DNA of 64,000 nucleotides from an uncultured bacterium (GTDB lineage Bacteria; Patescibacteriota; Minisyncoccia; UBA6257; 2-01-FULL-56-20): NCBI GenBank assembly GCA_963844965.1, contig CAWJQC010000007.1, forward strand, positions 96,001 to 160,000, read 5' to 3'. Made by a program: the position numbers and the translations under genes. Below the pieces are notes generated by a model, which did no database searches, was not told where the DNA came from, and saw only the letters and a program-made list of their open reading frames with translations. The stretch's first letter is position 1, and every line of letters starts with the position of its first letter. Shown here piece by piece: positions 46,738-57,968 of this stretch.

Positions 46738-47767
46738 ATGCCGGAAACAAGGACATCTGAAATTTCGTGGGTTACTCTGTGGCGGATTTTGTTTTTCGCC
46801 TTGCTTGTCGCGGTTCTCTACCTGGGGAGGCAGATTCTTTTGGGGTTATTTCTTGCCATAATTATTTCGTCGGGCATAGAGGTGGTGGTGAATTTTTTTG
46901 AGAGGGTGGGCATACCGAGAACGCTAGGTGTGATTTTGCTTTTTCTTGCCGGCTTGGTGCTCATAATTATTGTCATTTATACGGTTATTCCCCTGATAGT
47001 GGTTGATTTGAATTCCATTTTTTTCGGTTTTGATAAGTCAACGGCCGGCGTCATTTGGACATCACTCGTAGAGTCTGAGAACTTCGCAGTCGGTAAACAC
47101 GCTTCTGAGCGGTCTTTCGCAGCAATTTTTTTCCGGGAGCGCTTCTCCTTTGGATGTTTTTTCAAAGACTCTCGGAAGTTTCGGGCTTGTCATGGCGGTG
47201 ATCGTAAGTTCGTTTTATTTGAGCATAAGCCGCGACGGAGTGGAGAGGTTTATAAAAGCCGTGCTGCCCGCCGATTACGAGAAGTCGGCTTTGAGCATCT
47301 ATGAGCGCTCAAGGAAGAGAATTGGCTTTTGGTTCCGAACGCAGATTTTTTTGAGTCTGCTAATCGGGCTTTCGGTTTGGGGAGTGCTCGTTCTTCTTGG
47401 CGTGAGGCACGCTTTTCTCCTCGGCATAGCGGCGGCTATTTTTGAAATTGTCCCCTATGTGGGCCCAATTCTTTCCGGCGCGCTCGCGGTTCTTATGGCG
47501 CTTTCCACGTCCGTATCCCTCGCGCTTTATACTTTGATAGCATTTCTAATTATCCAGCAACTTGAATCACACGTATTGGTGCCGCTTTTGATGAGGCGCG
47601 CCGTTGGTTTGCATCCGGTGATAGTCATCATCGCTCTCTTAATCGGCATAGAGGTCGGCGGAGTTTTGGGTGCCTTGATCTCCGTTCCGGCAGCCGCGGT
47701 TTTTGAAGAGGCGCTTGACGAATGGTCGCAGAAGAAACGGCCGAAAGAACCGGAACCCGTTATTTAA
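46738..47767 (+). pseudogene. AI-2E (PerM/UPF0118) family transporter with an apparent +1 frameshift near 47070-47100
   Basis: Two overlapping ORFs (46738-47304, 47150-47767) in different frames together span an AI-2E-like membrane protein. Frame 2 opens right after a stop at 47069-47071. Confidence 0.5.
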
Positions 47768-47875
47768 TGCAATCCGAAAAATCCGAATTTCATCCGAATG
47801 ACCCAAATAGAATAAACAAAAACCATTTGGAGCATTCGGATGTATTCGCAGATTCGGATTGCTGTAGCGAAGCGT

Positions 47876-48439
47876 ATGAAAAAGTTTTACATTACGACGA
47901 CGCTTCCTTATGTGAACGCGCCGCCCCATATCGGTTTCGCTCTGGAGATTATCCAGGCGGATGTCATCGCCCGCTCCCGAAAGCTCGCGGGCGATGATGT
48001 GTTCTTTAATACGGGGACGGACGAGCACGGCTTGAAAGTATATCGCAGAGCGGTGGAAGAAAAAAAAGACCCGCAGGTTTACGTAAATGAATGTGCGGAG
48101 AAGTACGAAGATTTAAAACGTACGCTTGGCGCTGATTACACGAATTTTATCCGCACGACCGATCCCCATCACGTGAATGCCACGCGGGAATTTTGGAGAA
48201 AGTGCGACGAAAACGGTTATATCGAAAAAAAGCTCTATAAGATCAAGTACTGTGTTGGCTGCGAACTGGAAAAAACCGACTCCGAGCTTGAGAACGGCCG
48301 TTGCATAATTCACCCGAATCTTGAGATTGAAATAATAGAGGAAGAAAATTATTTTTTTCAATTCTCCCGGTATCCAGAAGTCCCTCCTCGTGCTTTACGA
48401 AAAATATCCGGATTTTGTTTTGCCAAGCGCAGCGTTTAA
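47876..48439 (+). CDS. metG: methionyl-tRNA synthetase, N-terminal fragment (frameshifted)
   Basis: PYVNAPPHIGFALE HIGH region. ORF-track start 47840, but the MKKFYITTTLPY start at 47876 is typical. Confidence 0.8.
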   Translation: MKKFYITTTLPYVNAPPHIGFALEIIQADVIARSRKLAGDDVFFNTGTDEHGLKVYRRAVEEKKDPQVYVNECAEKYEDLKRTLGADYTNFIRTTDPHHVNATREFWRKCDENGYIEKKLYKIKYCVGCELEKTDSELENGRCIIHPNLEIEIIEEENYFFQFSRYPEVPPRALRKISGFCFAKRSV

Positions 48440-48454
48440 ATGAGATAAAAAAAT

Positions 48455-49276
48455 TTGTTGAGGGCGGCTTGCAGGATTTCAGCGTTTCGCGCCTCAAAAA
48501 AAAGATGCCGTGGGGCATTTCCGTCCCCGGGGGACGAAGAGCATGTGATGTATGTTTGGTTTGACGCTTTGGTGAATTATGTATCGGCTTTGGGCTGGCC
48601 GGAGAACAAAAAGAAGTTCGCCGATTTTTGGGGGACAGAAGCGGCGCCGAATGCCGTGCAGATCGCGGGAAAAGACAATCTTCGCCAACAGTCGGCAATG
48701 TGGCAAGCGATGCTTATGGCGGCCGGATTGCCCACTTCGCGGCAGATTCTCATACACGGTTTTATTACTAGCGGCGGCAGTAAGATGAGCAAAAGCTTGG
48801 GCAACGTGGCGGACCCGTTCTTTTTGGTCCAAAAATACGGCACGGACGCATTGCGCTACTGGCTACTGCGTGAGATTCCCGCCTTTGAAGACGGAGATTT
48901 TGAGGAAGAAAAATTGCGCGAGCGGTACAATGGCGACCTAGCGAACGGATTGGGAAATTTTGCCGCGCGCGTTTTAACGCTCGGCGCCGGCCTCGGTAAA
49001 GTTTCGGAAGGTTTAAAACCCGATGCCGAGATATCGGGATATATAGAAAAAACAAAAAAGGTGGTTTCGGAAAAAACGGAAGGATTCAAATTCCACGAGG
49101 CGCTTGCCGCGATTTGGGATTTGACCGGCTTCGGCGATTCGTATGTGAATAAGACCGCGCCGTGGGGGATAAAGGATGCGGCGGAAAAAACACAGACAGT
49201 TTTCAATTTGGTAGTGATTTTGGATAATGTGGCGGCGATGCTTCGGCCATTTTTGCCGGGAACGCGCGCAAGATAA
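48455..49276 (+). CDS. metG: methionyl-tRNA synthetase, C-terminal fragment (frameshifted)
   Basis: HVMYVWFDALVNY and KMSKS motif GGSKMSKSLGNV. First about 25 codons of this ORF are out-of-frame read-through. Confidence 0.8.
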   Translation: MLRAACRISAFRASKKRCRGAFPSPGDEEHVMYVWFDALVNYVSALGWPENKKKFADFWGTEAAPNAVQIAGKDNLRQQSAMWQAMLMAAGLPTSRQILIHGFITSGGSKMSKSLGNVADPFFLVQKYGTDALRYWLLREIPAFEDGDFEEEKLRERYNGDLANGLGNFAARVLTLGAGLGKVSEGLKPDAEISGYIEKTKKVVSEKTEGFKFHEALAAIWDLTGFGDSYVNKTAPWGIKDAAEKTQTVFNLVVILDNVAAMLRPFLPGTRAR

Positions 49277-56274: not shown

Positions 56275-56436
56275 TGTCGCCCTCCTTATTAATACGCTGC
56301 GATTAGTATATAACACAGTTAATCGCTCCACAAGTCCGCTGTTGCTTATTTTTTGCGTTGCAGTATAATGCGGCTATCCGGTTGAGCTTCGCTCGCCGGA
56401 AATTAAAAGCTCCTTGAGAGCTCGGAGGTACGGGAT

Positions 56437-56634
56437 ATGGACAATGTACTGAAAATTAAGATGGTTGAAAAAAGAGCTTTAGGAAAGATGCTCGCCGCTC
56501 TATGTGAATTTGATGTTCGGAGCTTTTCGGGGTCGCTTAATGGCAACTATGCCGAGGTTGAGTTCACTTTTAATTCTCCGCAAGAGAAAGAAGCGGCGCT
56601 TGCCAGGCTGAATGGATTAAATTTAATTTTCTGA
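56437..56634 (+). CDS. small hypothetical protein
   Basis: 65-aa ORF with GGAGG upstream. Confidence 0.3.
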   Translation: MDNVLKIKMVEKRALGKMLAALCEFDVRSFSGSLNGNYAEVEFTFNSPQEKEAALARLNGLNLIF

Positions 56635-56884
56635 ACCATCTCGCATTCAATTCTTTTTCAGAACAAAAGCCGCTTCTCCCGAAGCGACCGTTTTTTATGA
56701 ACAGATAGTTTTTGCTGAGAGGCAAAAACACCTTATGGCCTTAGAAGCGAGGCGTTCGTTTCGAGAAGCTATCGGAGGCGATTCGAGCTTGGTGTCGCCT
56801 TAGGCGACGCGAATCGCCGAGATGCAGCGGGCGACTTGCCGCTGGAGCAAATTGAACCGCGGTTCCCGAAACAAATGCCGAGCG

Positions 56885-57968
56885 TCACTTCCTTTCCGCC
56901 AGCGCCGCTTTTACCGAGAACTGTTTTTCGCCGCGCATGACGAGCAGTTCAACTTCTTCGCCCACATTCATATTTTCCAGAAAATCCTGAATCGGATGGT
57001 CGCGGTCCAGTTTTTTGCCGTTGAATTCCAGAACAATGTCTTTTTCCTTGATGCCCGCCTTGTCGGCGGGGCTTCCCGCAATGACGCCATGATCATGCTC
57101 GGACCTTGCCTACGATTAGAAGCGCCATAATTAACTGGCAGGCCCATTTTGTCTTTGAATTTGTCGTCGATCATCATATAGCGAAGGCCGAGAAGCGGAC
57201 GGCGGATACGGCCATATTTTTTTATGTCGTCAAGGTCGCGCTCGGCGGCGTTTATCGGTATGGCGAAACCGATATTCTGCGCGCCCGAAGACAATGGCGG
57301 CATTCACGCCGACTGCCAAGCCATTCAAATCCACGAGCGGTCCGCCGGAATTTCCCGGATTGATGGCGGCGTCGGTTTGGATGAGGCCGCGCATTTCCTG
57401 CGGCGGCGCATCCGGGTCTGCTTGCGCGGAAATCGCCCGCGAGAGTCCCGGAGACGATTCCCAAAGAAACCGTGTTTTTGAAAATTCCCAAGCGCGTTGC
57501 CGATGGCGATCACGCTCTGGCCAAGTTCAAGTTTGGTTGCGTCGCCGAGTTTCACAGGCGGGAGTTTATCCGCCTGGATTTTTATGATGGCCACATCGTT
57601 TACGGGGTCGCGGCTCAAGATCTCTGCCGGAAATTTCCTGGCCGTCGTTCAAGATGACTGTGTATTCCGCCTTCGGAATCGTTGATGACGTGCTTGTTGG
57701 TGAAAATAATTCCGTCCTCGCTGACGATGAATCCCGAGCCGCCGCCGATTTCCACCATGCCGCGCTTGTCCATCATGTTTTCGGGAATTTCCAGCTTCGG
57801 ACCGCTCGGCCCGCCGGGAAGAAACGGGCATGACGGAGTTTCTTGCGGGATTTCTTTTTCCAGATCTTCCAGATGCTTCGCGATGACGATGGAGACGACC
57901 GCCGGCATCACTTTTTTTATCGTGGAGATAACTTTGTCTTCACTCATCTCATAATTGTAGCATTTCAC
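56885..57968 (-). pseudogene. htrA: HtrA/DegP-family serine protease with PDZ domain, broken by at least five frameshifts
   Basis: Fragments in three frames: GSGFIVSEDGIIFTNKHVI (His), [50 protein letters not shown] (Ser), [39 protein letters not shown] to stop at 56885. Confidence 0.6.

What the first reader, a model, noticed from the sequence alone, without database searches (positions are those of the whole stretch)
46738..57968. Cluster of at least 12 single-base frameshifts confined to about 11 kb, hitting essential genes
Frameshifts by gene: AI-2E transporter 1; metG 3 (+1 each, in a CC pair, an AAA run and a GGGGG run at about 48374, 48438-48440 and 48529-48533, restoring frame after 160 bp); tatD 2 (two -1 within 90 bp); leuS 1 (+1 in A6 at 54181-54186); htrA at least 5. 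Every other gene in the window, before 46.7 kb and after 58 kb, is intact. Three compensating indels in metG and an indel in leuS, both essential, argue for localised sequencing or assembly error. Plausible causes are homopolymer-prone chemistry at low coverage, or strain-mixture consensus. They argue against genuine pseudogenisation. The higher density in htrA leaves real decay possible for that gene.
Basis: seen in the sequence. Interest (0 to 1): 0.55.

Follow-up and report, generated by a model that had tools for sequence, protein, structure and literature searches.

The report
Local patch of assembly indel errors
A 10.6-kb stretch of this uncultured (CPR/Patescibacteria) bacterial contig carries 16 single-base insertions or deletions that break five otherwise perfectly conserved genes, and the evidence points to consensus errors in the deposited assembly, not to real gene decay.

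Summary
I find 16 single-base frameshifts between 47071 and 57678: AI-2E transporter 1, metG 5, tatD 2, leuS 1, htrA 7. I found none in about 45 kb of coding sequence elsewhere in the window. Three genes inside the stretch are also intact.

After the 16 indels are removed, every protein matches its Pfam model and its orthologues end to end. A newly fetched syntenic relative (L161) has all five genes intact. Corrected HtrA is 87% identical to its relatives. It has no internal stop and no excess of private substitutions. dN/dS is about 0.06, the same before and after the shifts.

The indels are single bases only: 12 insertions and 4 deletions. They are not linked to homopolymers; none of the 22 runs of 7 or more bases in the stretch is hit. 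They are clumped at two scales, and the four deletions sit next to each other.

This pattern fits neither real pseudogenisation nor recoding. It fits a poorly supported or badly polished consensus patch, of the kind long-read assemblies or collapsed variants produce.

At least the leuS frameshift is in the public record: an identical 1014-aa fragment is on file from a 331,718-bp contig in NCBI and ENA. Interest is low.

The parts
46738..47767 (+). AI-2E family transporter gene, broken by one extra base at 47071 (CTCGTA[G]AGTCTG). It switches from frame 1 to frame 2.
   Evidence: 87% aa identity to the L161 orthologue across the junction. (nucleotide alignment 80.5% identical with a single 1-nt gap). 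(corrected protein matches Pfam AI-2E_transport positions 2-326 of 327).
47876..49345 (+). metG (methionyl-tRNA synthetase), with five indels. Three are extra bases, at about 48368-48380, 48426-48434 and 48518-48533. Two are missing bases, at about 49258-49268 and 49315-49327. As written, translation stops at 48437-48439.
   Evidence: four orthologues agree on the three +1 events. (two 1-nt gaps against L161 at 49264 and 49325). (corrected protein matches tRNA-synt_1g through to position 391 of 391, plus the anticodon-binding domains).
49339..50070 (-). HAD-family hydrolase gene, intact, lying inside the affected stretch.
   Evidence: HAD_2 positions 1-171 of 178 in a single frame.
50101..51073 (+). 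tatD-family hydrolase gene, with two missing bases. One is at about 50503-50512 (GACC_AAAAG). The other is at about 50591-50602. Frames run 1, then 3, then 2.
   Evidence: (corrected protein matches TatD_DNase positions 1-253 of 253).
51151..54610 (+). leuS (leucyl-tRNA synthetase, with inserted Ser_hydrolase and NUDIX domains). One extra A in the A6 run at 54181-54186. The other 3.4 kb is clean.
   Evidence: (148 orthologues switch from frame 1 to frame 2 at 54182-54186). (the truncated 1014-aa product is itself on record in NCBI and ENA as P0001)..
54618..56331 (.). Two intact genes inside the stretch: an unnamed ORF at 54618-55595 (+) and a dCTP-deaminase-like gene at 55672-56331 (-).
   Evidence: 70% identity to the L161 orthologue in a single frame. 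(DCD positions 9-152 of 153).
56888..57947 (-). htrA/DegP-type serine protease with a PDZ domain, broken by seven extra bases at about 57678, 57640, 57493, 57453, 57286, 57121 and 57098-57110. It also has an in-frame 6-nt difference at 57829-57846.
   Evidence: (nucleotide alignment 81% identical to L161 htrA, with isolated 1-nt gaps in otherwise conserved stretches). (corrected protein 87% identical to 349-aa relatives)..

Best explanation
The 16 frameshifts are most likely errors in the consensus sequence of the deposited metagenome-assembled contig. They are confined to a 10.6-kb patch (47071-57678) where the consensus was poorly supported or badly polished.

Candidate causes are a local coverage drop, an unpolished long-read patch, or reads from slightly different variants collapsed into one consensus. 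In the organism these five genes are almost certainly intact: the AI-2E transporter gene, metG, tatD, leuS and htrA.

What is shown:
- the indels exist, and at least the leuS one is in the public record;
- removing them restores full-length, highly conserved proteins;
- there is no other sign of decay.

What is inferred: that the indels arose during sequencing or assembly, and by which route.
For: 1. All 16 lesions are single-base indels. After correction there is no internal stop. Every protein matches its Pfam model end to end and matches orthologues across each junction.

2. The syntenic relative L161 has the same gene order with all five genes intact. Nucleotide alignments at 77-81% identity show isolated 1-nt gaps exactly at the shift points.

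3. There is no relaxed constraint. Corrected HtrA has four private changes at invariant columns, within the range of its intact relatives (0-11), and three of the four lie at reconstructed junctions. dN/dS against L161 is 0.057 for htrA and 0.076 for the AI-2E gene, and is similar before and after the shifts.

4. Sixteen frameshifts with no nonsense mutation has a probability of about 0.001-0.03 if 20-35% of real disabling point lesions were nonsense mutations. That range is my assumption.

5. The indels are not homopolymer-associated. By established knowledge, real replication-slippage indels are.

6. The indels are clumped at two scales. All 16 fall in the stretch (2e-12). Within it, the distribution among genes is uneven (p = 7e-4), and 10 of the 15 gaps between neighbouring indels are under 200 nt (p = 5e-5). 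The four deletions are contiguous, at 49264-50595, flanked by insertion-only runs (p = 0.007). That is what segments built from different poorly supported reads or patches would look like.

7. metG and leuS are essential single-copy genes in a reduced genome. I found no second copy in the window.

8. The literature shows that long-read assembly errors are overwhelmingly indels that falsely break genes, and that collapsing nearby variants introduces indel errors (PMC8445201; PMC12007338).
Against: No reads, coverage or quality values are available. The sequencing technology of the source record is unknown, so the artefact is inferred and not observed.

No same-species sequence exists in the collections I searched, so the true sequence cannot be shown directly.

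Why 53 kb of the same contig is clean is not explained in detail. No repeat or obvious junction marks the boundaries of the patch. Composition does not change sharply there.
Confidence: 0.87

Rival explanations
1. The lesions are genuine and very recent. On this reading, the assembled haplotype comes from a real but non-viable or degenerating variant. Examples are relic DNA, a redundant second copy of the block, or a lineage hit by a burst of indel mutations in this 10.6-kb region.
For: The frameshifts are in the deposited sequence, and at least the leuS one is in the public record. htrA carries seven of them. There are no reads to show that the indels are unsupported.
Against: There are no nonsense mutations. 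HtrA has no excess private substitutions. dN/dS of about 0.06 is unchanged downstream of the shifts. Insertions outnumber deletions 12 to 4, and no indel is longer than 1 nt, which runs against the known deletion bias of bacterial pseudogenes (established knowledge; Mira, Ochman and Moran 2001). The indels avoid homopolymers, unlike slippage mutations. Two essential aminoacyl-tRNA synthetase genes are hit, and no second copy is present in the window.
Confidence: 0.06
2. The frameshifts are decoded around. On this reading, programmed ribosomal frameshifting or transcriptional slippage restores the full-length proteins.
For: The leuS site is an A6 run followed by G (C AAA AAA G), on which a +1 slip would give the right protein. 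The three +1 shifts in metG add up to one codon.
Against: None of the orthologues examined has a shift at any of these sites: about 160 loci for leuS, several for each of the other genes, and 120 HtrA relatives. The 16 sites share no motif. Most have no slippery run. A6 is shorter than the runs of about 9 or more bases known to support useful transcriptional slippage (established knowledge). Seven successive recoding events in one 1-kb gene would be without precedent.
Confidence: 0.01
3. The join is chimeric. On this reading, the 47-58 kb segment comes from a different, rarer relative and was stitched into the contig. The frameshifts would then reflect that organism's thin coverage and not a problem in the main genome.
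For: Similarity to the close relative L161 is mosaic. The AI-2E gene and HtrA are 87% identical at the protein level. The MetRS core is 32-50%, while its C-terminal third is 75-90%. The LeuS core is about 50%, while its last 120 residues are 83-100%. A low-coverage foreign segment would explain why the errors are local.
Against: Gene order from the M16 peptidases through to htrA is the same as in L001, L022, L023, L040 and L161. There is no jump in composition and no repeat at the boundaries. The mosaic pattern can equally be real recombination in either lineage. This is also a sub-case of the artefact explanation and not a true alternative to it.
Confidence: 0.06

Closest known systems
Gene-fragmenting indel errors in long-read or under-polished assemblies (for example Watson and Warr 2019, from memory; Kastor, PMC12007338; Cosentino et al., PMC8445201)
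   Same: Single-base indels split conserved genes into adjacent ORFs in different frames. Correction restores full-length proteins. Errors are almost all indels and not substitutions. Collapsing nearby variants is a documented way to introduce such indels.
   Different: Here the errors sit in one 10.6-kb patch of an otherwise clean 64-kb window, not spread across the whole sequence. They are biased towards insertions. They are not tied to homopolymers, whereas the published Nanopore and HiFi error profiles are largely homopolymer-linked.
Genuine bacterial pseudogenes in reduced or host-restricted genomes
   Same: Several frameshifts per gene, with neighbouring genes affected.
   Different: There are no nonsense mutations, no multi-base deletions, no excess of substitutions and no rise in dN/dS. 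Essential single-copy aminoacyl-tRNA synthetase genes are hit.
Programmed +1 or -1 ribosomal frameshifting (prfB, dnaX) and transcriptional slippage on long A/T runs in endosymbionts
   Same: A coding sequence continues in another frame after a single-base offset. The leuS site lies in an A6 run.
   Different: The shifts are not conserved in any orthologue. There is no shared slippery motif. Sixteen sites lie in five unrelated genes. The runs are too short.

Membership tests
Assembly or consensus indel artefact | Lesions are short indels only, and removing them restores a full-length, conserved reading frame | tested here: met
   There are 16 single-base indels. Corrected proteins match Pfam models end to end and match orthologues across every junction.
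Assembly or consensus indel artefact | No accompanying sign of relaxed selection (nonsense codons, excess non-synonymous change) | tested here: met
   No internal stops after correction. HtrA private substitutions are within the range of intact relatives. dN/dS is 0.057 for htrA and 0.076 for the AI-2E gene, and similar before and after the shifts.
Assembly or consensus indel artefact | Indels are not supported by the underlying reads, or coincide with low depth or mixed pile-ups | not testable with these tools
   No reads, depth or quality data are available. The source record (a 331,718-bp contig in NCBI and ENA) is not identified by accession.
Assembly or consensus indel artefact | Association with homopolymer runs, the typical error signature of Nanopore, HiFi, 454 or Ion Torrent data | tested here: not met
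   The longest run near each indel averages 3.0 bases, against a background of 3.16. None of the 22 runs of 7 or more bases in the stretch is hit. This lowers the case for a homopolymer-chemistry error. It does not lower the case for a consensus error as such.
Genuine pseudogene | Reading frame disrupted in the genomic DNA | tested here: inconclusive
   The frame is disrupted in the deposited sequence. Whether it is disrupted in the organism's DNA cannot be told without reads.
Genuine pseudogene | Relaxed constraint: nonsense mutations, raised dN/dS, lineage-specific changes at invariant sites | tested here: not met
Genuine pseudogene | Mutational spectrum of real indels: deletion bias, varied lengths, concentration in homopolymers | tested here: not met
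   There are 12 insertions and 4 deletions, all of 1 nt, with no homopolymer preference.
Genuine pseudogene | The gene is dispensable, or an intact copy exists elsewhere | not testable with these tools
   The window holds no second metG, leuS, tatD or htrA. The rest of the genome is not available.
Programmed ribosomal frameshift or transcriptional slippage | The frameshift site is conserved in orthologues | tested here: not met
   All orthologues read in a single frame: about 160 LeuS loci, the L161 gene set and 120 HtrA relatives.
Programmed ribosomal frameshift or transcriptional slippage | A slippery motif, or a long A/T run of about 9 or more bases, at the site | tested here: not met
   Only leuS has a run (A6). 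The other 15 sites share no motif.

The most novel reading that the evidence does not exclude
The indels could be real. On that reading, a Patescibacteria population, or relic DNA from one, carries a 10.6-kb block in which 16 single-base indels accumulated with essentially no substitutions. These would be mostly insertions, outside homopolymers. This would imply a localised, indel-specific mutational process, such as error-prone repair synthesis across a break-repair tract. It would hit essential aminoacyl-tRNA synthetase genes, so the cell would either be dead or would decode around the shifts.
Probability: 0.03. Interest if true: 0.75.

Novelty: not a real feature. Interest (0 to 1): 0.08.

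Why it matters
The practical value is quality control. This public MAG contig has a 10.6-kb patch where five genes, two of them essential aminoacyl-tRNA synthetases, would be annotated as pseudogenes or fragments.

Left uncorrected, the patch would lower completeness estimates and raise pseudogene counts. It would also put truncated proteins into protein databases; the 1014-aa LeuS fragment is already on record there.

The case also shows a way to separate artefact from real decay without reads. The tests are the balance of indels to substitutions, private-substitution counts, dN/dS on either side of each shift, homopolymer association, and the spatial ordering of indel types.

No new biology follows from the frameshifts themselves.

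Tried and rejected
- **Looking for the same species elsewhere.** Exact-protein look-ups of flanking and internal ORFs found nothing. Scans of genome contigs and metagenome contigs with LeuS gave a best match of about 56-65%. Protein searches with LeuS and with corrected HtrA found only the source's own LeuS fragment at 100%; the next best hits were 56% for LeuS and 87% for HtrA. So no direct check against the true sequence was possible.
- **Looking for repeats or junction signatures at the patch boundaries.** I found nothing meaningful. There is no composition break.
- **A 14-nt tandem duplication in tatD (50558-50585) as the cause of the second tatD shift.** Removing one copy creates an in-frame TGA, so I rejected this.
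- **Lowering the frameshift penalty to find hidden compensated pairs.** This split the single htrA 'skip-2' event into two +1 events, which the 87%-identical relatives support. It also produced spurious events at gene ends and in poorly aligned inserts, in control genes as well, so I discarded those.
- **An apparent pair in leuS at 53644-53760.** This turned out to be an in-frame insertion and not a frameshift pair.
- **Rfam scan.** It found only a tRNA-Ser.
- **A possible frameshift at 33417-34701.** Rejected; these are two proper genes.
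Full report
**Setting.** The window is part of a contig from an uncultured Patescibacteria (CPR, Paceibacteria-like) bacterium. The closest LeuS relatives in a species-level genome collection and in JGI metagenomes are only 40-65% identical. All come from Patescibacteria MAGs. The truncated 1014-aa LeuS product of the window is on record in the 15-billion-protein collection. It is a single-member cluster from one 331,718-bp contig held by NCBI and ENA. 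So at least that frameshift is in the deposited assembly and was not introduced later. The contig itself could not be retrieved.

**Checking the observation.** I wrote a frameshift-aware protein-to-DNA aligner and ran syntenic orthologues against the window. The gene order M16 peptidase, M16 peptidase, AI-2E transporter, metG, tatD, leuS, unnamed ORF, htrA is shared with L001, L022, L023 and L040. It is also shared with L161 (GCA_040960625.1), a closer relative found later in which every one of these genes is intact. The results by gene are:

- AI-2E transporter: one extra base at 47071.
- metG: three extra bases at about 48374, 48430 and 48523. Together they restore frame 2 after about 150 nt, but a stop at 48437-48439 truncates the product as written.
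- tatD: two missing bases, at about 50508 and 50591-50602.
- leuS: one extra A in the A6 run at 54181-54186. 148 orthologue fragments switch frame exactly there.
- htrA (minus strand): seven extra bases at about 57678, 57640, 57493, 57453, 57286, 57121 and 57104.

The total is 16: twelve +1 and four -1.

**The rest of the window.** Inside the stretch, a HAD hydrolase (49339-50070), the ORF at 54618-55595 and a dCTP-deaminase-like gene (55672-56331) are intact. Outside it, several checks all came back clean:

- Orthologue tblastn gave no hits split across frames.
- Pfam domains were full length in every ORF that had a hit.
- A Markov frame scan showed no frame switches within genes.
- The only suspicious overlap, at 33417-34701, is two proper genes.

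With 10.4 kb of coding sequence inside and 45.5 kb outside, the chance that all 16 events fall inside is 2e-12.

**What the corrected genes look like.** With the 16 bases fixed, all five proteins match their Pfam models end to end:

- AI-2E_transport positions 2-326 of 327.
- TatD_DNase positions 1-253 of 253.
- The MetRS catalytic domain through to position 391 of 391, plus the anticodon-binding domains.
- LeuS with its catalytic, editing and anticodon-binding domains.
- HtrA Trypsin_2 positions 1-144 of 144, plus a PDZ domain.

The signature motifs read through: KMSKS in both synthetases, and TNKH, NDVA and GNSGGP in HtrA.

Corrected HtrA is 87% identical to a tightly conserved 349-aa family. 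At columns that are invariant in the 11 relatives, it has four private changes. Three of them sit at places I had to reconstruct around indels. The relatives themselves have between 0 and 11.

Against L161, the AI-2E gene is 80.5% identical at the nucleotide level, with one 1-nt gap. htrA is 81% identical, with isolated 1-nt gaps in otherwise well-conserved stretches. dN/dS is 0.076 for the AI-2E gene and 0.057 for htrA. It is no higher downstream of the shifts than upstream.

**Why this is not real decay.** A gene that had picked up seven real indels should also carry many substitutions, some of them nonsense. There are none. Sixteen frameshifts with no nonsense mutation has a probability of roughly 0.001-0.03 if 20-35% of real disabling point lesions are nonsense (the range is my assumption).

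Real bacterial indels are biased towards deletions, vary in length, and concentrate in homopolymers (established knowledge). Here insertions outnumber deletions 12 to 4, and every event is 1 nt. The longest run near each event averages 3.0 bases, against a background of 3.16. None of the 22 runs of 7 or more bases in the stretch is hit.

metG and leuS are essential, and the window holds no second copy of either.

**Why this is not recoding.** No orthologue has a shift at any of these sites. The sites share no motif. Only leuS lies in a run, and A6 is short for slippage.

**Why an artefact, and of what kind.** The errors are clumped at two scales. Beyond the overall confinement, the eight genes in the stretch are hit unevenly (htrA 7, leuS 1 in 3.5 kb, three genes 0; p = 7e-4). 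Ten of the 15 gaps between neighbouring events are under 200 nt (p = 5e-5).

The four deletions lie next to each other (49264-50595), between insertion-only runs (p = 0.007). A mutational process has no reason to sort events this way. A consensus built piecewise from few or conflicting reads does.

Long-read assembly errors are overwhelmingly indels that falsely break genes. Collapsing nearby variants is a documented source of such indels (PMC8445201; PMC12007338). It points instead to thin or mixed support.

I found no repeat or composition break at the edges of the patch. So the immediate cause, whether a coverage drop, an unpolished patch, collapsed variants or a chimeric low-coverage segment, stays open.

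**Limits.** Without reads, the artefact is inferred. No same-species sequence exists in any collection I could search, so the true sequence is reconstructed from relatives at 55-87% protein identity. Exact indel positions are good to a few bases where L161 aligns at the nucleotide level (AI-2E gene, htrA, metG C-terminus). Elsewhere they are good to about 10 bases.

**Verdict.** This is an assembly-quality problem, not a biological feature. Interest is low.

Noticed in passing
window 51151-54610 (LeuS residues about 244-400 and 582-678): LeuS carries two whole enzyme domains inserted into the synthetase. A Ser_hydrolase (PF06821) alpha/beta-hydrolase domain sits just before the editing domain. 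A NUDIX (PF00293) domain sits after it. Many Patescibacteria LeuS proteins in the database show one or both inserts (Pfam column; L001 alignment). The close relative L161 has a plain 837-aa LeuS without them. Their function is unknown.
   Followed up: partly
window 47876-49345 and 51151-54610, compared with L161 12847-19709: Similarity to the syntenic relative L161 is mosaic. The AI-2E transporter and HtrA are 87% identical at the protein level. In MetRS, aligned residues 60-300 are only 32-50% identical, while the last ~180 are 75-90%. The LeuS core is about 50%, while its last 120 residues are 83-100%. This suggests that the catalytic cores of both synthetases were replaced by recombination in one of the two lineages.
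   Followed up: partly
window 53648-53720: leuS has an in-frame insertion of about 66 nt relative to the L026 orthologue (MRGVSNFQFPISKY). It is bounded by the direct repeat AATTTCCCCGCC (53655 and 53692) and contains a GC-rich palindrome. It could be a small inserted element, a duplication, or another assembly oddity within the bad patch.
   Followed up: partly
window 50558-50585: tatD contains a perfect 14-nt tandem duplication (GACAAGCGACATGG, two copies), in a variable loop next to the second tatD frameshift. Removing one copy does not repair the frame.
   Followed up: yes
window 57829-57846: htrA has six extra nucleotides, giving PQETPSCPF where all 11 aligned relatives have P-K-[DE]-L-Y-P-F. 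This is either a genuine two-codon insertion or further consensus noise.
   Followed up: partly
window 21037-22617 (-): A single 526-aa ORF joins a LexA DNA-binding domain and an S24 peptidase domain to a full N6_N4 DNA methyltransferase domain. This is an unusual fusion of an SOS-type repressor with a methylase.
   Followed up: no
window 5002-9595: This looks like a mobile or defence-related cluster. It holds a ClpP-like SDH protease fragment, an N6_N4 DNA methylase (6776-7795), an IS200-type Y1 transposase (7874-8311), an Mrr-like restriction endonuclease (8318-8935) and a NYN-domain protein (8942-9595).
   Followed up: no
window 39375-40763: A full-length serpin (Pfam Serpin positions 2-370 of 370, E = 1e-106) in a Patescibacteria genome.
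   Followed up: no
window 56373-56429, matching L161 11743-11799: A 57-nt non-coding stretch is 93% identical between the window and L161. That is far above the identity of the surrounding sequence. It lies just upstream of a 65-aa ORF (56437-56634) and has no Rfam match. It may be a conserved leader or regulatory element.
   Followed up: partly
window 46738-57968 compared with the rest of the window: Homopolymer runs of 7 or more bases are 2.6 times denser inside the affected stretch (1.96 per kb) than outside it (0.74 per kb). None of them coincides with a frameshift. I did not resolve whether this reflects gene content or in-frame consensus noise.
   Followed up: partly
window 63370-63457 (-), matching L161 8951-9038: A tRNA-Ser (CGA) gene is 95% identical to a stretch of L161. 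In L161 that stretch lies next to a phage-type integrase gene, so it may be an integration hotspot.
   Followed up: no
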